DNA from: Candidatus Limnocylindrales bacterium
GTDB lineage: Bacteria; Chloroflexota; Limnocylindria; Limnocylindrales; CSP1-4
Length of the DNA: 64,000 nt
Assembly (NCBI GenBank): GCA_035540555.1
Contig: DATLGJ010000020.1
Coordinates: forward strand, 58,759-122,758
Direction of reading: 5' to 3'
Both the position numbers and the translations under genes were made by a program. Numbering within the stretch: the first letter of the stretch is position 1; each line of letters begins with the position of its first letter. Positions 3,001 through 16,358 of this stretch are shown in pieces. A model generated the notes under the pieces. It did not search any database. It was not told the origin of the DNA and was given only the letters and a program-made list of their open reading frames with translations.

Positions 3001-4296
3001 GCAGCCGGTGGGCGTACCCGTCTGCCCATACTGGAGGCAGATCGTCGGATCGAGCACGACCGGATACACGCGGGCCGGATCCGCCAGCCAAGCCGGATCG
3101 ATCGTGTAGGTCAGCACGATCTCGTCGGGCCCCAGGCGGCCATCGGTCAAGTCCGGCGCCGTCGGATCCGTCGGTGATGGGGACTCAGGCGCCGCGGTGT
3201 CGAGCGGAAGGTCTGTCGGCTCTGGCTCAGTCGGTTGGGTAGTCGCGTCAGCCGCCGGGGTCTCGACCGGCGCGGTCGCGTCCGGCGCAATCGTCGGCTC
3301 CGCCGGAAGCGTCGGACCGGGCAGGATGGGCGCCAGGGTCTCGACGGTAGGGGTGGCCAGGACCGGCGACGGGGTAGGCAGGGGCGGTCGCGGCGCTGGG
3401 TCGATGCGCGTACTCAGTGTGGTGGTAACCGCTGTCTCTGGGGCGAAGCTGTCTATCGCATCGATGGCCCATGGAGGACTGACCGTTCCGGCGATCTCGC
3501 CATCGGCGTTGCGTAGCAGCACGCCGCGACCGTCAGGCGCGACCTCGGCACGCAGACCACCGGTATCGAGGATGAACTGGTAACTGTTAGCCAAGCCGGG
3601 CTCAGCCAGCGTGACGGAAAAGGCCAGCCCTTCGGGAACCGGGATTAGCGAGACTTCGCCGCTGCCCGGGCGGGCCGGGATGCGGACTTGGTCTGGCAGG
3701 GTTATCGGAGCCAGCACACCCCGGTCGACTTGGCGTAGACGAAGGGTGCCATGAGGACTCCGTATCTCTGCGAGCCGGTCGGTGTTCCCCTTGGACGAGA
3801 GGCTCACTCCGACATCGTTGGCCCGTGTCCTTTTGCCGTACTCCCCGGCCTCGTCAGTCAGGCTCAGGTCGATGGGTTGCCACTTACCTTCGCTGTCCAG
3901 GTAGTTGATGCGACCCATAAAGAATTCGGCGGTGTGGGTTCCGTCGGGCCCCACGACTACCCTGCTGTAGGCGGTCCGAAGGGCTTCATCTTCTGTCGCT
4001 GCGCGCGGCAGAGCGTCTACGCTCCGCGGCGAGCGAAGCTCTGCCCCGAGACTTGGCAGGTACCCGCGTTCACCGCCGATGACTTCAATAGGCGCGGGCG
4101 AGCGCTCAAGGAACAAAGGCACCGAGTTCTCGATGGCGGGAACGCGGGGGTCCGAGGCCGCAGCATCATCGTCTTGAAGCACGGCTATCGCAGCCGGGAC
4201 GGGTGGGCCAAGCACTGAGAGAGCGAGGACGAGCGCCAGGAGACTGGACCGCGCTCGGCCATGGCGAGCGCGCTGACTCGGAAATTGGAAGTGCAT
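1..4296 (-). CDS. Large secreted RHS/YD-repeat (WapA-like) protein, N-terminal 1432 codons. The gene runs off the window start, so the C-terminus and any toxin/immunity module lie outside.
   Basis: Manual reverse-complement translation shows an uninterrupted frame from ATG at 4296 to position 1 (codon starts are multiples of 3). No listed ORF on either strand explains the region. The N-terminus has a signal-peptide-like sequence (MHFQFPSQRARHGRARSSLLALVLALSVLGPPVPAAIA). A Pro/Thr-rich linker sits near 3200-3450. The distal part contains YD/RHS-like repeats (LTWTYDYSAQ, RVTDPRDTGN...TVTYS). The ORF track omits it because the stop is outside the window. Confidence 0.6.
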   Translation of the reverse strand, partial: MHFQFPSQRARHGRARSSLLALVLALSVLGPPVPAAIAVLQDDDAAASDPRVPAIENSVPLFLERSPAPIEVIGGERGYLPSLGAELRSPRSVDALPRAATEDEALRTAYSRVVVGPDGTHTAEFFMGRINYLDSEGKWQPIDLSLTDEAGEYGKRTRANDVGVSLSSKGNTDRLAEIRSPHGTLRLRQVDRGVLAPITLPDQVRIPARPGSGEVSLIPVPEGLAFSVTLAEPGLANSYQFILDTGGLRAEVAPDGRGVLLRNADGEIAGTVSPPWAIDAIDSFAPETAVTTTLSTRIDPAPRPPLPTPSPVLATPTVETLAPILPGPTLPAEPTIAPDATAPVETPAADATTQPTEPEPTDLPLDTAAPESPSPTDPTAPDLTDGRLGPDEIVLTYTIDPAWLADPARVYPVVLDPTICLQYGQTGTPTGCSSVYTAGDILDHFVLSGMPNSWQTGWNRIRVGTDADSGDGGSYGVMRGLLYFPNLALEDGAQVTDASLQLYQNNNWGNGTQKVYFEQVSSGWNMQATWNNQPSVLSGSATTPVTVFASSGYLTQDVTSMVRSWYTRSRASWQPNFGIRVRQQTESQNEVRYASQRADNLDRRPRLSVSYVVPAAGIDFDPALGDNFVPTTMVAGKSTSLPVRVRNDAGFTFNLSGANPNDYYAFGYRWLDAAGRPLAISGFTSWKVVNLPTAINSGATSSIFNVAVDAPPVVGQFGLRLDLVHVRGGTNLWGSDWAKPSAYYARKKYSLDDSNTRWVGASVVERADFGVSVVSGGGTAIGDTSSVELPDGSSLGINLWSRNLRFDGAGGVGFSDRGGLLSLAYYYDSANRTDCTGILRACGWGTNFDEGFRSGAGVEGADYIYVDADGNRYLVAAAPSGQLISAAPVRLERVRHTIFDENWLTGWSGTASLIASGTAFSGGRVYQIAANNATGASTGAFPKIDLDHYPLGSFAVIRTGSATRGAIGFQIVNETTGASTWLAYTLGTDFAISGVTKKVALGGSITSWRHIQGRDIRADAVSQAIGTVNDNFSITAMKFWGTTESGNLQFDAIRFEGTKADIINDANLAWTANAGNSSLSTTDRHAGTGAIKVLPASEAASPNCVACRNDNLIVHPFVSWAWKKVGGDHVAFAFHVKNARTNASSTITYYAGPALAPGTYTNQLQISPTAPTEWMVVTRNLLDDARQVLGYYNDAEGGNSETPGAGPIADPVHLTGLRLIARDGNYALFDTSQLRSLTNLGASYAATVADDFELTERGGARRFFNRDGVMTLSTDPSGNSTRLTWTYDYSAQTISLATVRAASDGEPLASGTATRQLQVTYGTSSVRFTEALSGATGRYTDFARDASNNLVTVIPARRSAACAASGQASGCHKFSYASGSLLNRVTDPRDTGNNALSHTVTYSVSDPTAVRSESTATDQLRVQSYGSGGSIV

Positions 4297-4599
4297 GTCG
4301 CTCCCTCGCACCTCGGCGCAGGCAGCACCGAGCCCCTAGCCCCCACGAATCAGCGTGCCGCCCCTCGGGCACGACGCGACGGTGGGGCCCCGCGCGGGCT
4401 GCCGCAAGCAGGGAGAACCCTATGTTCCGTCGGGGGTTTCGCCTTGAGCCCCGGCCGCTCGCGCGCTTGGGGCCGGCGTTCCTAGAAGCCTCTGGCTGCC
4501 GGCCGGCCTCTGGCGCAGTACCGCACCGGCGGCGGTTGCTCGGTTGGACTTCGCGCTCCGGCCCTGACCTGGCACCGCCTTCAACCGCCGGCCCCTACC

Positions 4600-4860
4600 T
4601 TATCGTTCAGGCGGCTCTTCGTTCGGATCCAACGCTGACAAGGGCACGCCGTACAACTTCGCGAGAAGGATAGCTTCGGCGAAGAGCAGCGACCGCCGGC
4701 CTGTTTCCAACTTGCCGATCCAGCTCTGCGGCTTGCCCACGCGCTGCGAGACCTGGACTTGGGTCAGGCCGGCCCGGCGGCGCAGTTGCGCCAGTCGGTC
4801 TGCGAGTGCCGTTCGGTCGGCAGCACTCTCAGGTGGCGGGCTGACCCGCGGCCGATTCAT
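4600..4860 (-). CDS. XRE-family helix-turn-helix transcriptional regulator (86 aa), divergent from the FtsH-like gene
   Basis: HTH_3-type motif LRRRAGLTQVQVSQRVGKPQSWIGKLETGRRSLLFAEAILLAKLYGV. A 190-bp divergent intergenic region separates it from the gene starting at 5051. Confidence 0.75.
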   Translation of the reverse strand: MNRPRVSPPPESAADRTALADRLAQLRRRAGLTQVQVSQRVGKPQSWIGKLETGRRSLLFAEAILLAKLYGVPLSALDPNEEPPER

Positions 4861-5050
4861 GGCTCACATGGTGATGCCCACATCGAAGCGCCGCACCGCA
4901 CTTTGGCGCACACCGGGGGCCAGTCGCTCACTCGCCGACAACGGCGCGCGTCACCCCTCGTGTCCGCCTTGGAGCCCGCCCTTGACAGCGCCTGCGGCTC
5001 TAGGATAGCGTCGACCGCCGTTATCCCGAATCCGAATAGGAGGCGTCAAG

Positions 5051-6484
5051 GTGAGTGCCGACAAGTCACGGCCGGACGAGATAGATCAGCTCCTGGCCGA
5101 TGCGCTGTACCAGGGACCGAGCGTCACTGCCGACCAGCTGGTAGGTGTCGATGCCTGTCTGCGCCAACTGGCCGGTCAGCTGACGCTGCTTGAGCGACCC
5201 GAGCTAGGCGTGCGACTTGGCATCCAACCATCTGGTTCGCTGTTTCTCGGCCCGCCCGGCACGGGCAAGACATTGCTCGCGCGGTTTCTGGCCGGGCAAC
5301 TGGGCGTTCCTATGTACCAACTGAGCGCCGATCAGTTCGGCGATGATCCGGCTCAACTTCATCGCATCTTCGGGCGCCTGAGCCGCCAGCGCGCCGTTCT
5401 CTTCATCGACGAGATCTCCATCCTCTGCCAGCGTCGCGACTGGTCGAGCGCCGAGGAGAGGCGCATGCTCGCAGCCCTGCTGACCGAGCTTGATGGACTT
5501 TCCAGCCTTGCGGCAGGAGAGCGCCTTTGGGTCATCGGGGCGTGTACGCCCGATATCCACCTCGATCCTGCCATTCATCGCTCGGGTCGCCTGGGGGTAA
5601 CGGTCGAGTTCGCCCTGCCGTCGGTGGAACATCGAGCCCAGTTGCTGCGCCTGTATCTGGCGGCTGTTCCGAACGCGCTGTCGGAAGAGGACATTGCCAG
5701 GCTAGCCGAGATGTCAGGCGGGGTCAGCGGGGCCGATGTTCGTGACTACATCAACCAGGCGGCCAGCCTGGTCCTGGCTGAGGCGGTGGATGTGGCCGAT
5801 CCTGTCATCGAGTATCGACACCTCGAGATCGTCTTCGGCCGGCGTGGATTCGTTGCCGCCGAGGGCCGGCCGGGACGCGAGCCGGACTGGGAGACTGCGG
5901 TCCACGAGGCCGGCCATGCCGTCATCGCATATGTCCTGTTTGGCCGCCCTGCGCTTGCGCAAGTCACGATCGGCTTTGGCCCGGTCGGCCGGCGTCGTAT
6001 GCCGACGAGAGGCCACTTCTCCGTATCGGATGATTGGGCCGAGAAGAACCACCCGACGTCGCTCAGCTGGAGCGACCATGTAGCGGTCAAGCTCGCCGGG
6101 GTCTGTGCCGAGGAACTGATTCTCGGTTACCGCGGCTCGGGCGCCTCGAGCGACATCGCTGCTGCCACCTCGCTCATCCTCGACCAGTTCGATCAAGGCG
6201 ACCCCTCATTCGGCCCCTCCCGGACCGAGATGGAGGGCGGCCCGGGCGCACGCATCGGGGGGGCCGGCTCCGAAGCCATGCGCGCCACCGCGTGGCATCT
6301 GGTCCGATCGCGATTTGGAGAATGCTGGTCCCGAACAGGCAGCTTGGTGAGCGAGCACAGATATGCCATCGAGCGGCTGGCCTCCGCCTTGCTCGAGAGC
6401 AAGAGTCGCCTGACTGGCGACGAGATCGTCGAGGTGCTCGACACCGGCGTGGTCGCAACCGGCGCTTCTGGCGCGGCAGCGTAG
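5051..6484 (+). CDS. Soluble (transmembrane-less) FtsH-like AAA+ ATPase fused to an M41 zinc-metallopeptidase domain
   Basis: Walker A GPPGTGKT and Walker B LFIDEI. AAA second region of homology TPDIHLDPAIHRSGRLG. HEAGHAV (HEXXH) plus downstream GASSDI motif typical of FtsH peptidase M41. The N-terminus has no hydrophobic TM segment. GGAGG RBS 7 nt before the GTG start. Confidence 0.8.
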   Translation: MSADKSRPDEIDQLLADALYQGPSVTADQLVGVDACLRQLAGQLTLLERPELGVRLGIQPSGSLFLGPPGTGKTLLARFLAGQLGVPMYQLSADQFGDDPAQLHRIFGRLSRQRAVLFIDEISILCQRRDWSSAEERRMLAALLTELDGLSSLAAGERLWVIGACTPDIHLDPAIHRSGRLGVTVEFALPSVEHRAQLLRLYLAAVPNALSEEDIARLAEMSGGVSGADVRDYINQAASLVLAEAVDVADPVIEYRHLEIVFGRRGFVAAEGRPGREPDWETAVHEAGHAVIAYVLFGRPALAQVTIGFGPVGRRRMPTRGHFSVSDDWAEKNHPTSLSWSDHVAVKLAGVCAEELILGYRGSGASSDIAAATSLILDQFDQGDPSFGPSRTEMEGGPGARIGGAGSEAMRATAWHLVRSRFGECWSRTGSLVSEHRYAIERLASALLESKSRLTGDEIVEVLDTGVVATGASGAAA

Positions 6485-6670: not shown

Positions 6671-9430
6671 TTGCTGACCGAGCGAGGCTTTGAGCTCTGG
6701 GGCGCGAGGCTGCAACTCGCGGACCCCGTGCGTCGGCTGATCGCTGACGTCCGGAGCGCTCCCCCAGCGCGCCGAGTCGGCAGCCGTCGGCGCAATGTCT
6801 CGGGCCGCTACCCAAGCCGCAAGATGGGGCTGACCATCCAGTTCGAGTCGCACACCAGTGAGTTGGTGGGCATCTACTCCTACGAACATGACTCGCGTGT
6901 GGTCGAGTACTACGACCAACCCGCCCTCAGCGCGAAGCTCAACTATGTGCGAGGAGACGGGCGACGCGTCAGCTACGCCGTAACGCCCGATTTCCTCGTT
7001 CTTGAGCGCGACGGCGCTTTCCTCGACGAGTGGAAGACGGAGACAGAGCTGGTCCGGCTTGCGGCCAAAGATCCCGCGTTGTACACCAAGGAGGATGGCG
7101 CTTGGCGCTCGCCTCCGCGAGAGGAGGCAACTGAGCGGCTAGGCCTCAGTTTCCGGCTGCGGACGCGCGACAGCGTCGGCGACATCCTCGACCGCAATCT
7201 GCGGTTTCTTGATGACTACTTGCGTGCCGCGGTTGAGCCGGACCCAGCGCTCGCAGCCGCACTGACCGAGGCGGTCAGCACGGATCCCGGGATCAGCGCC
7301 GGGGAACTGTTGAGCGCGCTCATGCGCGAGGGTGCCGCCGATTGTCTATACGCGCTCATCGCCGGTGGGCAGCTATTCGTAGATCTGGCGACACAGCCGC
7401 TGGCTGAGCCATTCCATGCCGCGGTCTATCCGAGTGCCGAGCTGGCCGCGTCCCTGAGGAGTCCGGAACAACCAATCGGCACGTTGGTGCAACTGACGTC
7501 CGGCACCAGGCTGGAATGGGATGGTCGGCCGTGGGACGTGGTAAACCCGGGACCCGAAGGCGTAAGCCTTCGCGATGCGGCCGGTCAGCTGGTCACCCTC
7601 GACAACCACGAGTTCCAGTCACGGCTGCAAAACGCCAGCATCCGAGAGCTACCGCATTCTCAGGCCGAGGCGCTGCCGCCGGAAGGCGCGGCGCTGCTGC
7701 GGGCAGCCAGTCCTAAAGACCTTGACCTGGCAAATCAACGCTATCGCCAGATCGTCAGTCCGAATGACGACGAGAGCGCTCTGTCACCGCGTTCGCTCGC
7801 GCGCCTGCGCAGAAGCTACCGCGAAGCGCAGTTGCGGTACGGGTGCGGCTTCATCGGGCTGCTGCCCCAGCCCAGAAAGGGCAACAAGACTCGGAAGCGC
7901 GAGGCCCAGGTACTAGGTGTGATCGAAGAGCAGATCAGCACGTTCTATAGAAGCAAAGACGCGCCGGGAAAGACCGCGCTCTACGGGCTGGTCGTGGAGC
8001 ATTGTCAGCGCCTCGGCTTGGAGCCGCCCTCGTACAAGACCGTCAGCAAGGCTCTGCACGCTCATGACGCTCATACCGTCCAAGGTGATCGAGAGGGCCA
8101 GAAGGTCGCCTACGGCAGCGAGCAGTTCTACTGGCACCTCGACGCGAGCACACCTCGCCATGGTGACCGGCCCTGGGAAATCGGCCACGCGGACCACACT
8201 AAGCTGGACATCGAGCTGGTCTGCTCAAAGACGGGCACAAACCTCGGTCGTCCATGGCTATCACTGCTCGTCGACGCTCACAGTCGCCGCGTCCTGGCCT
8301 TCTGGCTGACGTTTGACCCGCCGAGCTATCGCTCGCTGATGATGCTCGTGCGGCGCTGCGTTGCGCTACACAGCCGCCTGCCCGAGACCATCGTCGTTGA
8401 TGGCGGTGCAGAGTTCGGCAGCATCTACTTCGAAACCTTGCTGGCCGCTTTCGAGATCACCAAGAAGGTGCGCCCTGGCGCTCCGCGGTTCGGCTCGGTC
8501 TGCGAGCGCCTCTTTGGCATGGCCGACGAGCGCCTGATCCACAACCTGCGCGGGAATACCAAGCTCATGCGCAACGTGCGCACCGTCACCGCCGAGGTGA
8601 CCCCAAGCAAGCGGGCGGTATGGGATCTGTGGTCACTCGACAACGCGCTCGGCGAGTGGTTTCACGAGGTCTACGACGGCCTCGATCATCCCAGCCTTGG
8701 GCAGAGCCCTCGCGATACCTACAACGCGCGCATCGAGCTCAGCGGCACACGCCCGCAGCGCTGGGTCGCCGACGACGAAACCTTTCGCATGCTGACCCTT
8801 CCGAGCACCCAGAAGGGCACAGTCAAAGTAGATCCTTCCCGCGGCGTTAAGGTCAACTACATCAACTACTGGAACCCGCGCTTTCGCGATCCCGCTCTCG
8901 GGCGCCGCGACCTTCCTGTCCGCTATGACCCGATCGATGTCCGCCACGCATTCGTCTTCGCCGATGGCGACTGGATCGAGTGCGAGTCGCAAGAGCTGCG
9001 TTCGCTGCCCCAGATCTCGGAACGCGAGTTGCGCTTCGCCACCGCCGAATTACTCCAGCGCAGACGCAATGTCGAGCGCCGTCGACCGTTGACTGCTCGG
9101 GACATAGCGGTCTTCCTAAAGCAGCAGAAGGACAACGAGAACTTGCTCCTTTTGCGATTGCGCGACTTCGCGCAACGCGAGGTGTTGGCTCCGCACCGTG
9201 CCAATCAGCTTCTTGGGTGGGGCGCGCCAGCGCCGTTTGAAGCCGATGCCATGGCACCGCCGACGGCGCTGGAGGTGGTCGACCAGCCAGATGCAGCAGC
9301 GTCCTCAGAGCCGCCCGAGCAAGAGATATCGGCTTCCGTGGTGATCGCGGGGGAGACCAACGACCATCACGAGCCCCAAGACAGTCAGGCAGTGTTCGGT
9401 GAGTACACCCTCCTGATGGAGCTCAGCTGA
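6671..9430 (+). CDS. tnsAB: Tn7-like transposase, a TnsA-like endonuclease domain fused to TnsB (DDE, Mu/rve-type) = TnsAB
   Basis: The N-terminal ~190 aa carry PD-(D/E)xK TnsA motifs (ESHTSELVGIYSYEHD...QP...YAVTPDFLVLERDGAFLDEWKTE; compare Tn7 TnsA TDFLV/QVK). The rest has a Mu-type DDE core (HADHTKLDIELV ... TIVVDGGAEFGS ... SVCERLFG). TTG start with AGGAGG RBS. The stop abuts the tnsC start at 9432. Confidence 0.8.
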   Translation: MLTERGFELWGARLQLADPVRRLIADVRSAPPARRVGSRRRNVSGRYPSRKMGLTIQFESHTSELVGIYSYEHDSRVVEYYDQPALSAKLNYVRGDGRRVSYAVTPDFLVLERDGAFLDEWKTETELVRLAAKDPALYTKEDGAWRSPPREEATERLGLSFRLRTRDSVGDILDRNLRFLDDYLRAAVEPDPALAAALTEAVSTDPGISAGELLSALMREGAADCLYALIAGGQLFVDLATQPLAEPFHAAVYPSAELAASLRSPEQPIGTLVQLTSGTRLEWDGRPWDVVNPGPEGVSLRDAAGQLVTLDNHEFQSRLQNASIRELPHSQAEALPPEGAALLRAASPKDLDLANQRYRQIVSPNDDESALSPRSLARLRRSYREAQLRYGCGFIGLLPQPRKGNKTRKREAQVLGVIEEQISTFYRSKDAPGKTALYGLVVEHCQRLGLEPPSYKTVSKALHAHDAHTVQGDREGQKVAYGSEQFYWHLDASTPRHGDRPWEIGHADHTKLDIELVCSKTGTNLGRPWLSLLVDAHSRRVLAFWLTFDPPSYRSLMMLVRRCVALHSRLPETIVVDGGAEFGSIYFETLLAAFEITKKVRPGAPRFGSVCERLFGMADERLIHNLRGNTKLMRNVRTVTAEVTPSKRAVWDLWSLDNALGEWFHEVYDGLDHPSLGQSPRDTYNARIELSGTRPQRWVADDETFRMLTLPSTQKGTVKVDPSRGVKVNYINYWNPRFRDPALGRRDLPVRYDPIDVRHAFVFADGDWIECESQELRSLPQISERELRFATAELLQRRRNVERRRPLTARDIAVFLKQQKDNENLLLLRLRDFAQREVLAPHRANQLLGWGAPAPFEADAMAPPTALEVVDQPDAAASSEPPEQEISASVVIAGETNDHHEPQDSQAVFGEYTLLMELS

Positions 9431-9431
9431 C

Positions 9432-10520
9432 ATGGACGCAGATCAGCGGCGCGAGGCGCTCTCAGGCTTTAAGCGGTATGTCGTGGCCCACCCCAACCTG
9501 GTCGATACCGTAGCAACAGTGAATGGCTCCATCATGGAGCCGGCGGGTGCCGCGGTGACGATGCTCTACGGTCCGACCGGTGTGGGCAAGAGCACGGTCG
9601 TCCGGGCGGTCATGACCGAGGCGAACCGCGAGCTCATGCCTGAACTTGCCGCCGATCCAGGCAAGTTCGGTGTCATCAAGCTCGATGCTCCCGCGCCGAC
9701 AGGCGGGAGTTTCAGCTGGAAACAGTTCTTCATCAAGTTGCTCGTGGCTCTTGGTGAGCCGATCGCGGATGCGCGCCTCGAGCGCCCCGGAAGAGCGGTT
9801 GGCCAGCGGCTCCGCAGCGGCGAAGAAGCGCGCAGTCAGGCCGAGCAGGCATTGGCACAGCGGCGGCCGAAAGCTGTGCTGATCGACGAGGCAACGCATA
9901 TCGCCAACTTGGTGTCGGGTGAGCGGCTCCTCAACCAGCTCGACCTATTGAAGTCGCTGGCCGACAGCACGGGCACTCACTTCGTGCTCGTCGGTACATA
10001 CGACCTGCTTGCCTTTCGCAACCTGAGCGGTCAGCTCGGCCGGCGAACTCAGGACGTGCACTTTCAGCGTTACCTGCCGAACGAAGGGGATATGGGCAAG
10101 TTCCAAACGGTCGTCCGCTCCTTCGGCCGAGCGCTCCCGGTCGACGCGGTCGACCTGACCGAGCATTTCGAGTTTCTGTATGAACGTTCACTTGGCTGCG
10201 TCGGCATGCTGCGCGACTGGCTGACACGGGCACTCAACAGTGCCCTGGCCCTCGAACGGCCGTTCCTCTCCGCGGACCTGCTTCGCGCCAATGCCTTGCC
10301 CATGGGAGCGCTCATGGCCGCCGCAGAAGAGATCAGCTACGGCGAGGCAAAGCTGGCCGACGCTGAGCGCGACCAGTTGCGCCTGCGCGAACTGCTCGGC
10401 ATCGCTCCATCCCAGGGAGCGGCAGCTCTCGAGCCCGCAGCGCCCCGCCTCCGCGCCGGCGTCACTGGCCGCGTCGGCACGCGCCAGCCAAGCCGCGATC
10501 CTGTCGGCGTCGAGACATGA
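9432..10520 (+). CDS. tnsC: TnsC-like AAA+ transposition regulator
   Basis: Walker A GPTGVGKST and Walker B VLIDEAT. It occupies the TnsC/TniB position between the transposase and tniQ. Its stop overlaps the tniQ start (ATGA). Confidence 0.75.
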   Translation: MDADQRREALSGFKRYVVAHPNLVDTVATVNGSIMEPAGAAVTMLYGPTGVGKSTVVRAVMTEANRELMPELAADPGKFGVIKLDAPAPTGGSFSWKQFFIKLLVALGEPIADARLERPGRAVGQRLRSGEEARSQAEQALAQRRPKAVLIDEATHIANLVSGERLLNQLDLLKSLADSTGTHFVLVGTYDLLAFRNLSGQLGRRTQDVHFQRYLPNEGDMGKFQTVVRSFGRALPVDAVDLTEHFEFLYERSLGCVGMLRDWLTRALNSALALERPFLSADLLRANALPMGALMAAAEEISYGEAKLADAERDQLRLRELLGIAPSQGAAALEPAAPRLRAGVTGRVGTRQPSRDPVGVET

Positions 10521-11851
10521 ATGAGCAGTTCGCATTGGTCGCCGATCAGTCCGTGTTAGGACCGCGAAGCCGCCTTCATCGCTTGGAGCCTCAAGGTCTG
10601 GGCACTCCTGGTGTCGAGGCGATGACCAGCTACCTGCTCCGGCTGGCCGCAAGCCATGCGTTACCCGTGGGAAGCCTGGCCGTGGATCTGGTCGGGCCGG
10701 AACTCGGGCGCACTCGCGTCTATGGCGAGGCGCGCACCGATCGCTCCAGCTTCTTCAACTCCTCCATTTACCGAGGGCCGCAGGCCATCAACGGAGTTGG
10801 CGATTACGGCGAATTGTGGCTGGGAGCGATTCAGCGCTTGGTGCTGCGCGATGACCTAGCGCCCTTGAGCATGGTGTCCTGGCGAAGAGCGCTTTCGGCC
10901 CGCGGTCTACTGCGCGATCACTTGGCAGCGTGCGCCCATTGCCTGCACGAAGCAGCGGTCGCGGGGCGGACGATCCATGAGCCCCTGCTCTGGTCAATCG
11001 CGCAGGTGACCACGTGTCCGCTGCACGGTTGCCAGCTTCTACAGAGCTGTCCGCACTGCGCGACGCGCTCGCCACTCTTGGGCTGGGACGCCCAGGTGGG
11101 TCATTGCCGGCGATGTGGCAGCTGGCTAGGAAGCAGCATCTGTGACGAACAGCCTGGGAGCGAATGGGAGAGCTGGATATCGGCCAGCGTTGGCCGACTT
11201 CTTGAGTTGCCGCTCGAGCGACGGATCGCTGGCGGAACAATGGCTCGAGCCATCACGCAGGCGGTAGCCCGCAGCACCAATGGCAACGCTGCCGCCTTTG
11301 CCCGCGCGATCGGGCGCTCCAAGAGCCTGGTGACCGAATGGCGCCAGGGCCGAGCCGCGCCAACGCTCGAGTCACTGCTTCGCATCGCGGCATACGCGCG
11401 CCTGGACTTTGTGGCACTCGTGCGTGGCTCAGCCGTCGCTGACCCGGAGCCGCCGGCCCGATCGACATTGGGCGCCTGGGCCAGGGAAGTTAAGAGCGCG
11501 CGCGACTGGGGCGTGGTCGAGAGCCAACTGGAAGCGGCCCTAGCACTCGATCCACCGCAATCCTTCGCGGCGCTGTGTAGAGATTTACGCCTTGATGCTC
11601 AATCTGTTCGCGAGCGCTTTCCCGCTCTGGCGGGCCAGCTTGTGTCAAGGCGCCGCCGGTGGTCAGAGCATCAGAGGAACGAGCGATGCGAGGTGTTAGC
11701 CGGAGCGGTCCACGCGGCCGTCGTGGCAATCTGCGAGGTCGGCGAGCATCCCAGTCGTCGACGGGTCGAGGCGCTTCTTCCGACCGGCGCATCTCTTCGC
11801 GAGGACGCTCTTCGCACCGCCTGGCGCGAGTCGATCGCCACTCATCAGTAG
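10517..11851 (+). CDS. tniQ: TniQ/TnsD-family target-site selector
   Basis: N-terminal TniQ-like motif TSYLLRLAASHALPVGSLAV. Cys/His zinc-finger cluster (CAHCLHE...CPLHGC...CPHCATR...CRRCG). C-terminal XRE-like HTH (ARAIGRSKSLVTEWRQGRAAPTLESLLRIAAYARL). Confidence 0.7.
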   Translation: MNEQFALVADQSVLGPRSRLHRLEPQGLGTPGVEAMTSYLLRLAASHALPVGSLAVDLVGPELGRTRVYGEARTDRSSFFNSSIYRGPQAINGVGDYGELWLGAIQRLVLRDDLAPLSMVSWRRALSARGLLRDHLAACAHCLHEAAVAGRTIHEPLLWSIAQVTTCPLHGCQLLQSCPHCATRSPLLGWDAQVGHCRRCGSWLGSSICDEQPGSEWESWISASVGRLLELPLERRIAGGTMARAITQAVARSTNGNAAAFARAIGRSKSLVTEWRQGRAAPTLESLLRIAAYARLDFVALVRGSAVADPEPPARSTLGAWAREVKSARDWGVVESQLEAALALDPPQSFAALCRDLRLDAQSVRERFPALAGQLVSRRRRWSEHQRNERCEVLAGAVHAAVVAICEVGEHPSRRRVEALLPTGASLREDALRTAWRESIATHQ

Positions 11852-11949
11852 GGGGCGTCGCTGTCTCTCAGCTGCAAACACGCTAACCCGGTCCGCGCCC
11901 AATGCCGCTCCAGCACTGGTTGGTCAACAACAGAGGCCATGCTGGTTAT

Positions 11950-12312
11950 CTAGATCGCATAGTTGCGATACGACCCCCGTCCGTAGTCGTAAAGCGAGAT
12001 GCTGGAACCCGAGACCGTCCCAGAGAAGTGCGACGAAGTGCCGTAGTCGTAGCCCTCAAACCGATCCCCGGCGATCTTGAGTGCAACGTGATGACCGCGG
12101 CCGTAGTGGTACAGACTCAGGTTAGGCCGACTGCCTGACCCGCCGAAGTAGCATCCCGTGTCGTAGTCGTAGACGTTGACGGTTGTGGACGTCACTTCGC
12201 CGCTGATGCTGCGGTATTGGCCGAGGTCGTAGTCGTACACGGCGCTGGCAACCTTGCCTGTGATCAGTCGGGCAGCGACGTAGCCGACGAGGGCCGCAAC
12301 GTCATCGTGCAT
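11950..12312 (-). CDS. Small hypothetical protein (120 aa) built from five ~20-aa tandem repeats with an aromatic Y-D/H-Y-D/G core
   Basis: Sequence ...VYDYDLGQYRSISGEVTSTT / VNVYDYDTGCYFGGSGSRPN / LSLYHYGRGHHVALKIAGDR / FEGYDYGTSSHFSGTVSGSS / ISLYDYGRGSYRNYAI. Composition is not Arg/Ala-spurious. GGAG about 12 nt upstream of the ATG. It is the last gene before the transposon end and is transcribed inward from that end. Confidence 0.45.
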   Translation of the reverse strand: MHDDVAALVGYVAARLITGKVASAVYDYDLGQYRSISGEVTSTTVNVYDYDTGCYFGGSGSRPNLSLYHYGRGHHVALKIAGDRFEGYDYGTSSHFSGTVSGSSISLYDYGRGSYRNYAI

Positions 12313-12413
12313 CGTGACTCACATCTCCAAGCGACGTGCCGTATGCGCGAGCGTAGCAATGCCGCGGGATGGCGCGTCATAGGCGGGCTTAACACATGGC
12401 CGCGCCGGCTCGC

Positions 12414-12609
12414 TGGAAGCTTGGGCCGGCCGGACGTCCATCGGATCAGCTCGCGCCGAACGTGAGCCGGCGAGGTTCAGACGAGCGCCTCCAGTGGAAG
12501 CATCAGCTGGCACTTTGTCAGAACCGGTCGATTCTGAGCGTGACTACTTGCGTCGTCGCGAAAGTGGAAGCATGTGCTGTCCGTTGTCGACTGGAAGCAT
12601 GAGCTGTCC
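12414..12609 (+). repeat. Four direct repeats of a ~18-bp core TGGAAGCAT(C/G)(A/T)GCTG(G/T)CC, putative TnsB-binding sites of the transposon end. Copies at 12414 (degenerate), 12495, 12565 and 12592.
   Basis: Found by reading directly: ccagTGGAAGCATCAGCTGGCac (12495-12513), aaagTGGAAGCATGTGCTGTCC (12565-12582), gacTGGAAGCATGAGCTGTCC (12592-12609), gcTGGAAGCttgggcc (12414-). All point the same way toward the terminus. This is a gene-free, lower-GC segment. Confidence 0.55.
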
Positions 12610-12665
12610 AAAAGTGCCAACTTATGGTTCCAATCACAGGCCCGCCGAGGGCGTGCGCAAGATCG

Positions 12666-13039
12666 TGGTGGAGATGGGGGAGGGTCGAACTCCCCGTCCA
12701 AGGCGTTCAGCCGGAGACCAGCTACGAGCGTAGTCGATGCTTTGTCGTCAATCGGTCAGGCCGCCATCGACAGCGTCCCGCCCGATCCATCCACGCTCCC
12801 TTGCGGGCTTTGCGATCAGTCACGTGGCCTCGCCGATCGCGCATCCCCGCTGATTGACGCTTCCACAGCCCGCGGGGATGAGGCTGCTTCCACGTTCACC
12901 TAGCTGCTGTTAGGCAGCGAGGGGAAGAGAAGTCTGGCGGTTGCCAGTTACTTCGTTTTGCCGCCTTTTTCCGAGGCCAGAGCGGCATCCTCGACTCGCG
13001 TTCTCCGGGGATCCGGCCCTGTCGAAACCACTCATCCCC
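12666..13039 (-). ncRNA. ssrA: tmRNA (transfer-messenger RNA), 374 nt
   Basis: Minus-strand 5' end GGGGATGAGTGGTTTCGACAGGG (compare E. coli GGGGCUGAUUCUGGAUUCGACGGG). 3' end GGACGGGGAGTTCGACCCTCCCCCATCTCCACCA with T-arm GGGGAG/TTCGACC/CTCCCC. The acceptor CATCTCC pairs with 5' GGGGATG, including a G3-U wobble. Internal ...GGCCTCGGAAAAAGGCGGCAAAACGAAGTAACT GGC AAC CGC CAG ACT TCT CTT CCC CTC GCT GCC TAA gives a predicted tag GNRQTSLPLAA. smpB is immediately upstream. Confidence 0.7.
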
Positions 13040-13134: not shown

Positions 13135-13596
13135 TCAGCGCCCGCGCTGGGCGTCGGCCATCTCGCGCTCGACCTCGCGGCGCATGTCCCGCTCCGCGAT
13201 GGAGCGTCTTTTGTCGTGGAGCTGCTTTCCGCGTGCGAGCCCCAGCTCCAGCTTGGCGCGTCCCCTGTCATTGATGTAGAGCCTCAGGGGCACGACCGTC
13301 AGACCCTTGGCCGACGCACGGCCGAGCAACTGGTCAATCTCGGCACGGTGGAGCAGCAACTTGCGATCCCGGCGCGGCTCGTGGTTCCACCGATTGCCGG
13401 CTTCGTACGGCGCGATGTGGGCGCCGATAAGCCACGCCTCGCCCTTCTCCACGCGGGCGTAGGCATCAGCCAGGTTGGCCTTGCCCGCTCGAATGCTCTT
13501 GATCTCCGTGCCGGTCAGGACGATGCCGGCCTCGAAGGTGTCGCTGATCTGGTACTCATGGCGGGCTCTGCGGTTGACCGCCACCGTCTCGGACAT
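13135..13596 (-). CDS. smpB: SsrA-binding protein SmpB
   Basis: [17 protein letters not shown]...[13 protein letters not shown]...[20 protein letters not shown]. Start taken at the internal Met; the track ORF extends 28 codons further upstream. Confidence 0.85.
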
Positions 13597-13827
13597 TCTG
13601 TGCTGCTCCTGCCGTCCTGCGCCGGATCGGGGAAATGGCGCCGGACGCGGTGACGCCGGCCCTTTGTGGGCCGGCGTCACATGGCTGCGTTCACCACTTC
13701 TCAGGCGTCAGCTCAGGCGAGCGTCCCCCGAGAGGCGGTGCAGCGAGAACTGTCTGACACTGCACATCACCTCCTTTCGTTCGAAGGGACGATACCCGAC
13801 CTGCAGTCATTGCGCAAGGAGCGGTGC

Positions 13828-15171
13828 TCAGGCGGCGCGGGCCAGCCGGTGCAACGGATGCTCGGCCTCCTCCAGCGCGGCTCGCAGCAGCTCGATCGCC
13901 TGGTCGAGCACCGGATCCTGGCCGGCAGGGGTGCCCTCGGGCACCTCGACGACGAGGTCTGGCGTTAGCCCCTCCCCGTGGATCCACGTCTGGTCCGGGG
14001 TAAGCCACTTGCGAACGGAGAGGCGGTATCCGCCGGCACCCTCGAGCTCCTTCCACTCCTGGATGGTGCCCTTGCCGTACGTCCGCTGCCCGACCAGCTG
14101 CGCTCGCCCGCTGCCCTGCAGGGAGCCCGCCACGATCTCGCTGGCCGACGCCGTGCCGCCGTTGACCAGGACCACGAGCGGGATTGAAGGATCCGTCGCG
14201 GCGCCCCCGGGGATGGGCTCGATGGCCAGCGGTTCACTGCGCGCGCCCTGCTCCCAATACAGCGGGCTGGTGGCGACGAATTCGCTGGCTATGCGCCGCG
14301 CCGCATCGACGTAGCCGCCCGGGTCGTCGCGCAGGTCCAGGATCAGCGCCCGAACGCGGTGCTCCTCGACCAGCTCACGCAGCAGATCGTGCAGGTCCTG
14401 GGCCGCACCCGAGCTGAAGTTCTCGACCTTGAGATAGCCGATCGCGCCGTCGGCCAGGACGTCGCTCCGCACGTGCTCGCTCTGGATCACGTCTCGCACG
14501 ATGCGCAGCTCGAGCGGGTCCCCCGCGCGGTCGATCGACAGCGTCACCGACGTGCCCTTGGTGCCGCGAATGAGTGGAATCACCACGTCCAGGCTCGAGT
14601 CAAGCGTGGAGCGCCCATCCACGGCCAGGATGACGTCGTCCACCTGCAGGCCGGCGGCCAGCGCGGGCGATCGTCGAAGCACGCGCGTGACGGTGAGCCG
14701 GCAGCTGTGGGTGATGGTCGTGCAGGCATTCCCATCGGGCTCCCGCGTGGCCATCTCGGCGCCGATGCCTTCGAACTCGCCCGACAAATGACTCAGGCTG
14801 CCGCGGTACTCATCGGAGGTCATGTACCCCGAGAACGGGTCGCCGAGCGCCTGGAAGACGCCCTGAATGGCCCCCTCCACCAGGCGGCGCTCGTCGATCT
14901 CGCCTACATAGCTGTGGGTGATGTCGTTATAGGCGTCCCAGAAGGGCTGGAACAGCTCCTGCCGCGATTCACCGGTACCGGCCGTGGTTCCCTGAAGCTG
15001 GCCAAGCGCGAAGCCCGATACGAACAGCCCGCTGCCGGCGATGATCGCGACGAGGGCAGCGGCCACGTAGACCGCCGCTCGGCCAGGCCCTTCGCGGCGG
15101 TCGCGCTCGCCCGACGGGTCGACTCCATCGGTCGATAGGTGCCGGTCAGGCGTGGGATGGGGTTCCTGCAT
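13828..15171 (-). CDS. ctpA: Carboxy-terminal processing protease (S41, PDZ domain)
   Basis: N-terminal membrane anchor, PDZ region, catalytic-Ser motif VLVNGGTASASEIV and TYGKGTIQ. Confidence 0.8.
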   Translation of the reverse strand: MQEPHPTPDRHLSTDGVDPSGERDRREGPGRAAVYVAAALVAIIAGSGLFVSGFALGQLQGTTAGTGESRQELFQPFWDAYNDITHSYVGEIDERRLVEGAIQGVFQALGDPFSGYMTSDEYRGSLSHLSGEFEGIGAEMATREPDGNACTTITHSCRLTVTRVLRRSPALAAGLQVDDVILAVDGRSTLDSSLDVVIPLIRGTKGTSVTLSIDRAGDPLELRIVRDVIQSEHVRSDVLADGAIGYLKVENFSSGAAQDLHDLLRELVEEHRVRALILDLRDDPGGYVDAARRIASEFVATSPLYWEQGARSEPLAIEPIPGGAATDPSIPLVVLVNGGTASASEIVAGSLQGSGRAQLVGQRTYGKGTIQEWKELEGAGGYRLSVRKWLTPDQTWIHGEGLTPDLVVEVPEGTPAGQDPVLDQAIELLRAALEEAEHPLHRLARAA

Positions 15172-15253
15172 CGGAGGGTGCGTTCATACCGGGTGCGGAC
15201 GGACGAGCAGCAAGTGTAGGCGGCCGGGCCGATTCCTTCCCTCCGACCCGGGG

Positions 15254-16358
15254 TCAGGCTGCCTCGTCGGTAGCCAGGCGCTCCAGCTCCGCCAGCATGA
15301 AGCCGTCGAGGTCGCCGTCCAGGACGTCGCCCGTGCTGCTGGTTTCGTGCTCGGTGCGGTGGTCCTTGACCATCTGGTAGGGGTGCAGAACGTAGGAGCG
15401 GATCTGGTTGCCCCAACCGGCTTCGACGTGATCACCCTTGATCGCCGCCAGCTCTCGTTCGCGCTCCTCCAGCTTCCGTTCCAGCAGGCGGGCCCTGAGC
15501 ACCTTCATCGCAACGTCACGGTTCTGGTGCTGGGAGCGCTCGTTCTGGCTCTGCGCCACGATGCCCGTCGGCAGGTGCGTGATGCGGACCGCCGAGTCGG
15601 TCTTGTTGACGTGCTGTCCGCCCGCCCCCTGCGCTCGGAATGTGTCGACCTTGAGCTCGTCCTCCGGGATCTCGCCGACTTCGACGTCATCTTCGACCTC
15701 GGGCAGCACCTCGACCAGGGCGAACGTCGTATGGCGCCGCTTCTGGGAGTCGTACGGGCTGATCCGAACGAGGCGGTGAACGCCGCGCTCAGCGCGAAGG
15801 TGGCCGTAGGCGTTGCGTCCCTCGACGGCAAAGGTCGCGCTTTTCAGGCCCGCCTCCTCCCCCTCCAACTGGTCGAGGATCTCCGTGCCGAAGCGATGGC
15901 GTTCGGCCCAGCGCAGGTACATCCGCAGGAGCATGGCGGCCCAGTCGGTCGCCTCTGTGCCACCGGCCCCCGCGCTGATCGAGACGATCGCGCTGCGCTC
16001 GTCGTATGGCCCGTTGAACATCAGGCTCATGCGCTGGCGCTCAAACTCGGCGCGGAGCGCGACGTGCTCGGCCGAAAGGCCTGTCAGCATCTCCTGGTCG
16101 CCGGAATCGCCGGCCAGCTCTGCCAGCTCGACCAGATCGTCGGCGCGCTGCACCAGTGAGCGCCAGACCCCGATCTCCTCGCGCAGGCTCTCGGCCGTGC
16201 GCAGCACCTGCTGGGCGTTGCGTTGGTCCGACCAGAAATCGGCCGCGCTGGCCTGCTCGTCGAGGTCGGCCAGCCGCTCTTCGCGAGCAGCTAGGTCAAA
16301 GGCGCCCCGAGGTCGCGTGGATGCGCTCGGCCAGGGCGCGCAGCTCTCCTATATCCAA
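15254..16358 (-). CDS. prfB: Peptide chain release factor 2, requires a +1 programmed frameshift at CTT TGA C (16301-16295)
   Basis: Frame-0 leader from TTG at 16358 (RBS AGAGGAA) encodes (M)DIGELRALAERIHATSGRL then stop. The +1 frame continues DLAAREERLADLDEQASAADFWSDQRNAQQVLRTAESLREE... and includes GGQ. SD-like GGGG lies 3 nt upstream of CTT. Confidence 0.85.
16295..16308 (-). other. prfB autoregulatory +1 frameshift site (GGGG CGC CTT TGA C)
   Basis: Read directly from the reverse complement of 16295-16308. Matches the canonical RF2 recoding cassette. Confidence 0.8.

What the first reader, a model, noticed from the sequence alone, without database searches (positions are those of the whole stretch)
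11950..12312. Small protein of five ~20-aa tandem repeats (Y-D/H-Y-D/G core), the last gene before the transposon end
Sequence is ...VYDYDLGQYRSISGEVTSTT VNVYDYDTGCYFGGSGSRPN LSLYHYGRGHHVALKIAGDR FEGYDYGTSSHFSGTVSGSS ISLYDYGRGSYRNYAI. The period is regular and Gly/aromatic-rich, with a reasonable RBS, and I cannot assign it to a known family. It loosely echoes YD-repeat chemistry but is far shorter. It occupies the Tn7 tnsA-like slot: first gene, transcribed inward from the end, with the promoter presumably inside the TnsB-site array. Expression could therefore be coupled to TnsB occupancy.
Basis: seen in the sequence. Interest (0 to 1): 0.55.

Follow-up and report, generated by a model that had tools for sequence, protein, structure and literature searches.

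The report
Small five-hairpin protein carried as transposon cargo
The 120-residue repeat protein is a real, conserved gene of unknown function that rides as cargo in a Tn7-like transposon and elsewhere sits mostly among anti-phage defence genes; it is not part of the transposition machinery.

Summary
ORF 12312..11950 (minus strand) encodes 120 aa with five Y-D/H-Y hairpin units of about 20 aa. The periodicity is far beyond chance.

The gene is real. It has 74 close homologues and about 920 clusters in a profile search, nearly all stand-alone proteins of 105-125 aa. dN/dS against the nearest orthologue is 0.23. AlphaFold gives pLDDT 97.6: an N-terminal helix plus a 10-strand beta meander. There is no significant PDB or viral fold match, and no Pfam, NCBIfam or PADLOC membership (only sub-threshold DUF5334).

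It does lie inside a Tn7-like element (TnsA-TnsB fusion, TnsC, TniQ) inserted 26 nt from the tmRNA gene, and it is the last gene before the end array (12495-12640). The "tnsA-like slot" idea fails. Four distinct related elements were read. Two have tniQ abutting the end, one has 6.6 kb of other cargo there, and one was not resolved. None encodes this family. None of 23 genomic loci carrying the family has Tn7 genes.

Instead the family sits in defence islands, prophages and integrase islands. It often forms tight operons with TIR (PADLOC PDC-S66), HEPN or Shedu genes.

Best reading: a horizontally acquired cargo gene, probably conflict-related, with unknown biochemistry. Coupling of expression to TnsB occupancy is untested.

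The parts
11950..12312 (-). CDS of the 120-aa protein: N-terminal helix (aa 3-18) followed by five beta-hairpin repeats of about 20 aa, each with a Y-D/H-Y motif just before the turn
   Evidence: ORF and translation. 74 homologues to E = 1e-47. About 920 clusters in the profile search. dN/dS 0.23 against L002. AF2 pLDDT 97.6 and pTM 0.91. Repeat statistics.
11852..12494 (.). Variable cargo slot between the tniQ stop and the innermost end site. Here it holds only the repeat-protein gene. Positions 12313-12494 are its unique 5' spacer, where a promoter would be expected.
   Evidence: blastn of the window against related element L025: homology ends at 11833 and resumes exactly at 12495, while L025 has 6.6 kb of other genes in between. 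No promoter or terminator consensus.
12495..12640 (.). Attachment-site-proximal transposon end. Three direct TGGAAGCATSWGCTG sites (12495, 12565, 12592) plus one inverted terminal site (12614-12638). Inferred terminus ...CAATCACA at 12640 (TGTGATTGG read inward).
   Evidence: Three matches against 0.36 expected by chance. The same architecture is present in L025 and L039 next to their tmRNA genes.
12666..13039 (-). tmRNA (ssrA) gene, the probable attachment target. Its 3' end lies 26 nt from the transposon terminus.
   Evidence: ARAGORN. Rfam RF00023, 122 bits.
10517..11851 (+). TniQ-family target selector (444 aa), the last gene of the tns operon and convergent with the repeat gene
   Evidence: Pfam TniQ 6.5e-14. 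55% identical orthologue in L025.
9432..10520 (+). TnsC/TniB-like AAA+ ATPase (362 aa)
   Evidence: Pfam AAA_22 and TniB.
6671..9430 (+). TnsA-TnsB fusion transposase (919 aa)
   Evidence: Pfam Tn7_TnsA-like_N, rve and Mu-transpos_C. 688 or more homologues, several named TnsA-N-terminal-domain proteins.
4600..6484 (.). HTH regulator (4600-4860, minus strand) plus soluble AAA+/peptidase-M41 protein (5051-6484, plus strand). This module is conserved upstream of tnsAB in this element and in L025.
   Evidence: Pfam. Gene calls. 67% aa identity to L025.

Best explanation
The ORF is a functional gene for a small, probably cytoplasmic protein. AlphaFold predicts an N-terminal helix packed against a 10-strand up-and-down beta meander made of five hairpin repeats. 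The conserved Tyr-Asp/His-Tyr-x-x-Gly motifs sit at the five hairpin turns at one pole of the molecule.

It belongs to a large, unnamed, horizontally mobile family of stand-alone proteins of about 120 aa. In this window it is a cargo gene. It was acquired, with its own 5' spacer, into the short interval between tniQ and the ssrA-proximal end of a Tn7-like (TnsAB-TnsC-TniQ) transposon. It is not a component or conserved accessory of the transposition machinery.

From its genomic company I infer that it acts in phage/mobile-element conflict. That company includes defence islands, prophages, and tight operons with TIR, HEPN and Shedu-nuclease genes. The most likely role is a small binding module that recognises a ligand or partner protein through the conserved Tyr/Asp pole. 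It would work either alone or as an adaptor/regulator of a neighbouring effector.

What is shown: the gene is real, under purifying selection and confidently folded; it lies inside the element; it is absent from related elements; its contexts are defence-rich.

What is inferred: cytoplasmic location, a binding function, a defence role, and the direction of that role (defence or counter-defence).
For: Reality of the gene:
- Homologues reach E = 1e-47, and 703 clusters score E <= 1e-10. Almost all are 105-125 aa and aligned end to end.
- dN/dS is 0.23 against the 73%-identical Chloroflexi orthologue.
- AF2 gives pLDDT 97.6 and pTM 0.91, with helix 3-18 plus 10 strands.

Cargo status:
- Homology with L025 stops at the tniQ 3' end and resumes at the first end site. 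The interval is filled there by cupin, GGACT, WYL and other genes.
- L036/37 and L039 have no gene between tniQ and the end.
- tblastn and an HMM of the family find nothing in five related loci representing four elements.
- Tn7 proteins are absent from 23 genomic loci that carry the family.

Horizontal mobility:
- Hits come from about eight phyla as judged from record titles (Chloroflexi, Geobacter, several Bacteroidota genera, gamma-, beta- and alpha-proteobacteria, Acidobacteriota, Paenibacillus, Pirellulaceae, Portnoybacteria), in unrelated contexts.

Conflict context:
- A DUF1883-TIR protein (PADLOC PDC-S66/ThsB-like) ends 3-21 nt upstream in four Bacteroidota loci with different flanks.
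- A weakly HEPN-like protein (RiboL-PSP-HEPN, about 21 bits, below the 28.4-bit cut-off) lies directly upstream in L008 and L011.
- Shedu SduA overlaps its start inside a type I R-M operon in L019.
- Also within a few kb: YaaC, OLD/AAA_21, SIR2, AIPR, RloB, GmrSD, patatin, Type ISP, reverse transcriptase, HEPN_Apea and AbiEi.
- Three loci are phage or prophage.
- By my tally, at least 16 of 28 contexts carry a recognised defence, R-M or Abi gene.
- Published work shows Tn7-like cargo is enriched in defence genes and in genes of unknown function (PMC8649781).
Against: - No experimental datum exists.
- The family matches no PADLOC model and no PHROG significantly.
- It was not found in 50,697 phage or 72,556 plasmid records.
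- About half of the loci show the gene solitary, and some contexts (L009, L013, L015, L017/18) have no obvious defence genes.
- The association is qualitative, with no background-corrected enrichment.
- Partner genes vary widely, which could mean mere co-residence in variable islands.
- In this window no effector gene is adjacent.
Confidence: 0.55

Rival explanations
1. The gene occupies a conserved end-proximal slot analogous to tnsA. It is transcribed from a promoter inside the TnsB-site array, so its expression is coupled to TnsB occupancy, and it serves the transposon as a regulator or accessory.
For: It is the first gene inward from the end and reads inward. TnsB-type sites lie 183-328 nt upstream of the ATG. 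From memory, unverified here: in Tn7 the tnsAB promoter lies in the right end.
Against: None of four related elements has the gene; two have tniQ abutting the end, one has unrelated cargo there, and one is unresolved. None of 23 other loci with the family has Tn7 genes. A 182-bp spacer not shared with L025 separates the gene from the array and could carry its own promoter. No promoter consensus was detected.
Confidence: 0.05
2. It is a counter-defence (anti-defence) protein of phage origin, for example a small oligomeric sponge or inhibitor. It is carried by mobile elements to neutralise host immunity, or kept beside effectors as a brake.
For: It is small and stand-alone, and is present on a phage contig and in prophages. 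It lies directly beside TIR and HEPN effectors. The nearest, though non-significant, fold neighbours are ligand-binding beta barrels of FABP type.
Against: It is absent from 50,697 sequenced phage records. Most loci are chromosomal defence islands rather than phage genomes. There is no similarity to viral predicted structures.
Confidence: 0.2
3. It is the antitoxin/immunity partner, or the toxin, of two-gene toxin-antitoxin-like cassettes. It appears here as an orphan.
For: It is translationally coupled (ATGA overlap or a gap of 21 nt or less) to an upstream gene in 11 of 25 loci, several of them toxic-effector families.
Against: The same conserved small protein pairs with unrelated effector families (TIR, HEPN, Shedu, unknown). 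That is atypical for a specific antitoxin. It is solitary in about half of the loci, including this one.
Confidence: 0.1
4. It is an ordinary accessory protein unrelated to conflict, such as a metal, small-molecule or stress-binding beta barrel, that merely hitch-hikes in variable genomic islands.
For: Conserved Asp/His/Tyr positions could chelate a cation. Some contexts lack defence genes.
Against: The recurrent tight linkage with defence effectors across phyla is hard to explain by chance.
Confidence: 0.09
5. It is a degraded fragment of a larger YD/RHS-repeat gene, or a spurious ORF in GC-rich DNA.
For: A giant RHS protein is encoded about 7.6 kb away. The Tyr-Asp hairpin repeats superficially resemble YD repeats.
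Against: No RHS_repeat hit even at E <= 1. Homologues are full-length and the same size. There is purifying selection and a compact, very confident fold.
Confidence: 0.01

Closest known systems
Pfam DUF5334 (PF17268), a family of unknown function
   Same: It is the only library family with any signal. Residues 26-56 (two Y-D-Y hairpins) align to profile positions 4-37, and 17 of 28 family members give E <= 0.1.
   Different: The score of 22.1 bits is below the 25-bit gathering cut-off. The profile is 71 positions against a 120-aa five-hairpin protein with an N-terminal helix. DUF5334 is itself uncharacterised and appears in no paper of the searched library.
[quoted passage not shown] 2021, PMC8649781)
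   Same: The gene lies between the core tns genes and an end, varies between related elements, and has no transposition homology. This is the class described there as enriched in defence genes and genes of unknown function.
   Different: This particular family is not named there as far as I read. Here the cargo slot lies between tniQ and the attachment-site-proximal end, whereas the main cargo of this lineage lies upstream of tnsAB.
Tn7 tnsA (first gene inward from the attachment-site-proximal end of canonical Tn7)
   Same: Position only: it is the first ORF inward from the end next to the attachment site and is transcribed inward.
   Different: There is no sequence or fold relation. TnsA here is the N-terminal domain of the 919-aa TnsAB fusion, and TnsAB fusions are a known variant (PMC10293859). 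The slot is empty or differently filled in relatives.
RHS/YD repeats (PF05593) and other beta-hairpin repeats such as MORN
   Same: Glycine/aromatic hairpin units of about 20 aa with a Tyr-Asp signature.
   Different: No HMM match at E <= 1. It has five units forming a closed small domain with a helix, not a large shell or extended sheet. The motif is Y-D-Y-x-x-G rather than the YD-repeat consensus (the latter from memory).
Ten-stranded up-and-down beta barrels (intracellular lipid-binding proteins/FABP, LolA-like)
   Same: They are the best Foldseek neighbours. They share the strand count, the meander topology and helix-plus-barrel packing.
   Different: TM-scores are 0.34-0.50, E >= 0.007, sequence identity is about 10% and rmsd is 4-8 Å. 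That is not significant, and the helix position differs. This is not evidence of homology.
PADLOC candidate system PDC-S66 (DUF1883-TIR) and HEPN/Shedu single-gene defences
   Same: These genes lie immediately upstream of family members in several loci and form conserved two-gene cassettes.
   Different: The repeat protein is not part of any PADLOC model. No such partner is adjacent in this window.

Membership tests
Tn7-like core or accessory transposition proteins (TnsA/B/C/D/E, TniQ) | Sequence homology to a Tns/Tni family | tested here: not met
   Pfam and NCBIfam scans of the 120-aa protein give no Tns/Tni hit.
Tn7-like core or accessory transposition proteins (TnsA/B/C/D/E, TniQ) | Conserved presence and position in related elements | tested here: not met
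   Absent from L025, L036/37, L038 and L039 by tblastn and family HMM. The slot is empty or holds other cargo.
Tn7-like core or accessory transposition proteins (TnsA/B/C/D/E, TniQ) | Family members co-occur with Tn7 genes elsewhere | tested here: not met
   There is no TnsAB, TnsC or TniQ within ±10 kb of 23 genomic loci encoding the family.
RHS / YD-repeat proteins (PF05593) | Match to the RHS_repeat profile | tested here: not met
   No hit at E <= 1. All 28 members scanned gave none at E <= 0.1.
Pfam DUF5334 (PF17268) | Score at or above the gathering threshold (25 bits) | tested here: not met
   22.1 bits, E = 1.9e-4, with no domain passing on its own. Sub-threshold hits in 17 of 28 members suggest a remote relation only.
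Known or candidate anti-phage defence system components (PADLOC-DB v2) | Match to a PADLOC protein model | tested here: not met
   Zero families for the window protein. One member of 28 hits BrxB at E = 0.057, which is noise.
Defence-island genes (guilt by association) | Recurrent location next to known defence genes in unrelated genomes | tested here: inconclusive
   By my tally, at least 16 of 28 contexts hold TIR, HEPN, Shedu, R-M, OLD, SIR2, AIPR, RloB, GmrSD, RT or Abi genes within about 4-5 kb. No background-corrected enrichment statistic was computed.
Defence-island genes (guilt by association) | Phage-resistance phenotype | not testable with these tools
   This requires an experiment.
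Phage protein families (PHROGs) | Significant match to a PHROG profile | tested here: not met
   None for the window protein. There are scattered weak hits in 4 or fewer of 28 members.
Calycin/FABP-like beta barrels | Significant structural superposition (TM > 0.5, low E-value) | tested here: not met
Secreted or membrane proteins | Signal peptide or transmembrane segment | not tested
   No predictor was run. By eye, the N-terminal segment carries a conserved Arg in its middle and is modelled as a helix packed on the sheet at pLDDT of about 97, so a cytoplasmic location is inferred.

The most novel reading that the evidence does not exclude
The ~120-aa five-hairpin protein defines a previously unrecognised, widespread conflict module with a fold not represented in the PDB. 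It would be either a single-gene anti-phage factor or a portable sensor/regulator that plugs into diverse effectors (TIR/PDC-S66, HEPN, Shedu). Tn7-like transposons, prophages and integrative islands would spread it across at least eight phyla.
Probability: 0.3. Interest if true: 0.65.

Novelty: new member of a known kind. Interest (0 to 1): 0.38.

Why it matters
As a transposon feature it is ordinary. It is one more variable cargo gene, and the suggested end-coupled 'tnsA slot' function is not supported.

Its value lies elsewhere. It flags an unnamed but large protein family of about 920 clusters at 50% identity. The family has a very confident, apparently unmatched small beta fold and repeatedly sits beside TIR, HEPN, Shedu and R-M genes. 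Such families are the raw material for discovering new defence or counter-defence functions. The conserved TIR+repeat and HEPN+repeat cassettes give directly testable constructs.

The window also documents an ssrA-targeting TnsAB-fusion Tn7-like lineage. It has a conserved end architecture and a conserved HTH plus AAA+/M41-protease module.

Tried and rejected
- DNA tandem-repeat search over the ORF found nothing. The repeat is at protein level only.
- NCBIfam, PADLOC and PHROGs scans gave no membership.
- A PDB sequence-profile search gave only spurious 15-18-bit hits to influenza PA.
- Literature searches for DUF5334 (0 papers) and DUF1883 (nothing relevant) led nowhere.
- tblastn of the window protein against phages and plasmids, of P0008 against phages, and of P0024 against plasmids gave no match.
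- A metagenome scan with TniQ peptides and another with the degenerate terminal DNA motif both returned nothing. Related elements had to be reached through protein look-ups instead.
- The other (left) transposon end was sought with the 15-mer, the 25-mer terminal sequence, an 8-mer core and short-word blastn. It was not found in the window or in the L025/L039 flanks. The element therefore extends beyond position 1 or has a divergent or lost left end.
- Promoter and terminator consensus scans were empty and uninformative for this GC-rich, probably Chloroflexi-like host.
- The 64-aa ORF 12319-12513 immediately upstream on the same strand was considered as an operon partner. I set it aside by judgement, without a dedicated test. 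It overlaps the end site and is typical of spurious GC-rich ORFs, and the neighbour-ORF clustering (ORFs of 70 aa or more) would not have captured it.
- The single 378-aa fusion protein P0110 has no Pfam domain in its N-terminal part and may be an ORF-calling artefact. It was not used as evidence.

Full report
**1. The observation**

The minus-strand ORF 12312..11950 encodes 120 aa.

- Y-[DH]-Y motifs fall at residues 26, 48, 68, 88 and 108.
- The BLOSUM62 self-score is 62, 73 and 50 at lags 20, 40 and 60. The maximum over all lags in 2,000 shuffles was 36.
- Only 17 of 20,000 shuffles reach even three such motifs.
- The repeat is not visible as a DNA tandem repeat.
- GC3 is 78% against 47% at position 2.
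- GGAG lies 12 nt upstream of the ATG. The start is better supported by the near-invariant Met1 in the family alignment.

**2. Is it a real gene?**

Yes.

- A search of 5.8 billion proteins returned 74 homologues with E down to 1e-47. Almost all are 115-123 aa, aligned over the full length, without Pfam domains, and called 'hypothetical'.
- A profile of 67 members found 920 clusters at 50% identity among 1.84 billion representatives. Of these, 703 score E <= 1e-10 and 129 score E <= 1e-30. Again they are almost all stand-alone proteins of about 120 aa.
- Longer entries among those inspected look like upstream-start calls. The one 378-aa fusion (P0110) has an N-terminal part without any Pfam match.
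- Against the closest orthologue (L002, a Chloroflexi MAG, 73% aa and 74% nt identity), dN/dS is 0.23.
- The alignment shows a conserved N-terminal segment (consensus MKxxTRxxVAYIAGRLISG) and five hairpin units. Invariant or near-invariant residues are the Tyr/Asp of each Y-D-Y and the turn glycines.

**3. Structure**

AlphaFold2 with the 67-sequence alignment gives pLDDT 97.6 and pTM 0.91. The model has helix 3-18 followed by ten strands: 24-27, 32-40, 44-49, 54-61, 64-69, 74-81, 84-89, 94-101, 104-109 and 114-119.

Each repeat is one hairpin. The Y-D/H-Y motif ends each odd-numbered strand just before the turn, so the conserved residues cluster at one pole of the molecule (inference from the strand map).

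- Foldseek against the PDB finds nothing with E <= 1e-3. The best neighbours are a designed protein (TMq 0.49), FABP-type ten-strand barrels (TMq 0.41-0.48, about 10% identity) and LolA (TMq 0.34).
- BFVD gives nothing.
- The PDB sequence-profile search gives only noise.

The fold is therefore a helix-capped ten-strand meander without a demonstrable solved relative. That search was incomplete.

**4. Family assignment**

- Pfam gives only DUF5334 at 22.1 bits, below the 25-bit cut-off. Sub-threshold hits occur in 17 of 28 members.
- NCBIfam, PADLOC and PHROGs give nothing meaningful.
- RHS_repeat does not match even at E <= 1, so the 'YD-repeat echo' is superficial.
- A giant RHS protein does lie at 4335 to beyond position 1 on the minus strand, but it is unrelated to this gene.

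**5. The transposon**

Upstream on the plus strand are three genes:

- a 919-aa TnsA-TnsB fusion (Tn7_TnsA-like_N, rve, Mu-transpos_C);
- a TnsC/TniB-like ATPase;
- a 444-aa TniQ.

Downstream of the repeat gene are three direct TGGAAGCATSWGCTG sites at 12495, 12565 and 12592, against 0.36 expected by chance. An inverted terminal copy follows, ending ...CAATCACA at 12640. That is 26 nt from the 3' end of the tmRNA gene at 12666-13039 on the minus strand.

Two other elements show the same architecture next to their own tmRNA/smpB loci: direct GGAAGCAT sites, one inverted terminal site, and a TGTGA/G terminus 26-32 nt from ssrA. These are L025 (TnsAB 68%, TniQ 55% identical) and L039 (TnsAB 45%). 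The end is therefore well defined.

I did not find the other end in the window. TnsAB fusions are a known variant of Tn7-like elements (PMC10293859).

**6. Is the gene a conserved occupant of an end-proximal slot?**

No.

- blastn of the window against L025 shows homology through the HTH gene, the AAA+/M41 protease gene and tnsAB-tnsC-tniQ up to 11833. It resumes exactly at 12495, the innermost end site.
- In between, L025 carries 6.6 kb of unrelated genes (cupin, GGACT, WYL regulator, polyketide cyclase-like, ABM and others). The window carries only the 363-bp gene plus unique spacers.
- In L036/37 the TniQ stop is 10 nt from guaA.
- In L039 the tniQ stop runs straight into the end sites.
- L038 also has no small gene after tniQ.
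- tblastn (best E = 0.02 over 35 residues) and an HMM built from the family find no homologue in any of these loci.
- Conversely, tblastn with TnsAB, TnsC, TniQ, the protease and SmpB finds nothing within ±10 kb of 23 genomic loci that encode the family.
- In this lineage the tns operon reads toward the attachment-site-proximal end and the bulk of the cargo lies upstream of tnsAB. A 'tnsA-like slot' therefore does not exist here.

The gene is variable cargo. Whether its promoter overlaps the TnsB sites cannot be decided. The 182-bp spacer 12313-12494 is unique to this element, and no sigma-70 or terminator consensus is present.

**7. Where the family lives**

The 23 genome loci, judged from their record titles, span about eight phyla: Chloroflexi, Geobacter, Bacteroidota, gamma-, beta- and alpha-proteobacteria, Acidobacteriota, Paenibacillus, Pirellulaceae and a Portnoybacteria MAG. 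Fictibacillus and Planomicrobium also appear.

Tight same-strand partnerships:

- A 256-aa DUF1883-TIR protein ends 3-21 nt upstream in four Bacteroidota loci with different flanks. It matches PADLOC PDC-S66 at 5e-74 and ThsB models.
- A 236-243-aa weakly HEPN-like protein lies directly upstream in a betaproteobacterium and a Bryobacterales MAG. Its RiboL-PSP-HEPN score of about 21 bits is below the 28.4-bit cut-off.
- Shedu SduA overlaps the start inside an hsdM-...-hsdS-hsdR operon in L019.
- Unknown 91-227-aa proteins with ATGA overlaps occur in L012, L032 and L034.

Genes within a few kb:

- YaaC and an integrase (L003);
- OLD/AAA_21 ATPase (L005);
- SIR2/DUF4917 and GIY-YIG-DUF4357 (L016);
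- AIPR (L032);
- AAA_21+RloB, an SF1 helicase and YobI (L034);
- GmrSD (L010);
- patatin and a second TIR-like protein (L023);
- DUF4062 (L006);
- Type ISP R-M (L011);
- a reverse transcriptase (L014);
- HsdM and DUF6119 (L002);
- HEPN_Apea and an integrase (L040);
- AbiEi_2 and SIR2_2 (L042)

.

Three loci are phage or prophage: L021, L022 and L029-31. About half of the loci show the gene solitary, and a few (L009, L013, L015, L017/18) lack obvious defence genes. The family was not found in the phage and plasmid record collections.

By my tally, at least 16 of 28 contexts hold a recognised defence, R-M or Abi gene. This is a qualitative count without a background model.

**8. Interpretation**

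The most economical reading is that this is a horizontally acquired cargo gene of a Tn7-like element. Such cargo is known to be enriched in defence genes and genes of unknown function (PMC8649781). It belongs to a large uncharacterised family of small, probably cytoplasmic beta-meander proteins that reside in conflict-related islands.

I propose that it is a binding module, for a ligand or a protein, using the conserved Tyr/Asp/His pole. It would act alone or modulate an adjacent effector. The direction (defence, regulator/brake, or counter-defence) is open. I give the cargo, non-transposition conclusion about 0.9 and the conflict-related role about 0.5, for an overall 0.55.

Rivals, with my confidence in each:

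- phage-type anti-defence protein, 0.2;
- toxin-antitoxin component, 0.1;
- unrelated accessory protein, 0.09;
- gene fragment or artefact, 0.01.

**9. Verdict**

The position and orientation are right. The conserved slot, the YD affinity and the TnsB coupling are not supported or not testable.

The finding is an ordinary cargo gene from the transposon's point of view. It also points to an unnamed, widespread family with a high-confidence fold and a defence-island association that merits experimental testing. Interest is 0.38. Novelty: new member of a known kind (an uncharacterised cargo or defence-island gene).

Noticed in passing
window 4600-4860 (-) and 5051-6484 (+); L025 2913-5632: An XRE-type HTH gene and a soluble AAA+/peptidase-M41 (FtsH-like, HEAGH motif, no N-terminal membrane segment) lie directly upstream of tnsAB. 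The module is conserved (67% aa) at the same place in the related ssrA-targeting element L025. It may be a lineage-specific accessory or defence module of these transposons.
   Followed up: partly
window 1-4335 (-): This is the N-terminal 1,445 aa of a giant RHS/YD-shell protein. The full gene call on the source contig is 3,691 aa, with CBM_4_9, Laminin_G_3, RHS_repeat, TEN_YD-shell and PT-HINT domains. It lies left of the transposon genes. Whether it is cargo or host flank is undecided.
   Followed up: partly
window 12495-12640; L025 17981-18125; L039 about 13245-13325: The end architecture is conserved across elements with 45-68% TnsAB identity. It has two or three direct GGAAGCAT-type sites followed by one inverted terminal site and a TGTGA/G terminus 26-32 nt from the tmRNA 3' end. 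The matching opposite end was not found in the window or in the fetched flanks.
   Followed up: partly
window 6671-11851; L036/37, L038, L039: In this TnsAB-fusion lineage the tns operon is transcribed toward the attachment-site-proximal end, with tniQ last. Cargo rich in defence genes (MTase plus helicase, AbiEii, RES-Xre, ThiF/E2/Ub-like genes, a DEAD/MZB helicase) lies upstream of tnsAB. Attachment sites seen are ssrA (window, L025, L039) and the guaA 3' end (L036/37).
   Followed up: partly
one search hit list (P0222-P0339): Many TnsAB-fusion homologues sit on contigs of about 5.5-6.1 kb. This is roughly the size of tnsAB-tnsC-tniQ alone and suggests abundant minimal, multi-copy elements that break metagenome assemblies.
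   Followed up: no
L004, L006, L010, L023 (about 9209-10363); L008, L011 (about 9257-10363): There are conserved two-gene cassettes: DUF1883-TIR (PADLOC PDC-S66) plus the repeat protein in four Bacteroidota genomes, and a weakly HEPN-like protein plus the repeat protein in two other phyla. PDC-S66 is listed as a single-gene candidate, so the second gene may be an overlooked component.
   Followed up: partly
window 12319-12513 (-): A 64-aa ORF ends 7 nt before the repeat gene's ATG and starts inside the innermost TnsB-type site. I judged it a likely spurious GC-rich ORF. Its conservation was not tested.
   Followed up: no
window 13135-16207: The host flank to the right of ssrA is smpB, a CtpB-like S41 protease and prfB. 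It is syntenic with L025 (79% nt identity), which indicates related hosts carrying independently loaded versions of the same transposon lineage.
   Followed up: partly
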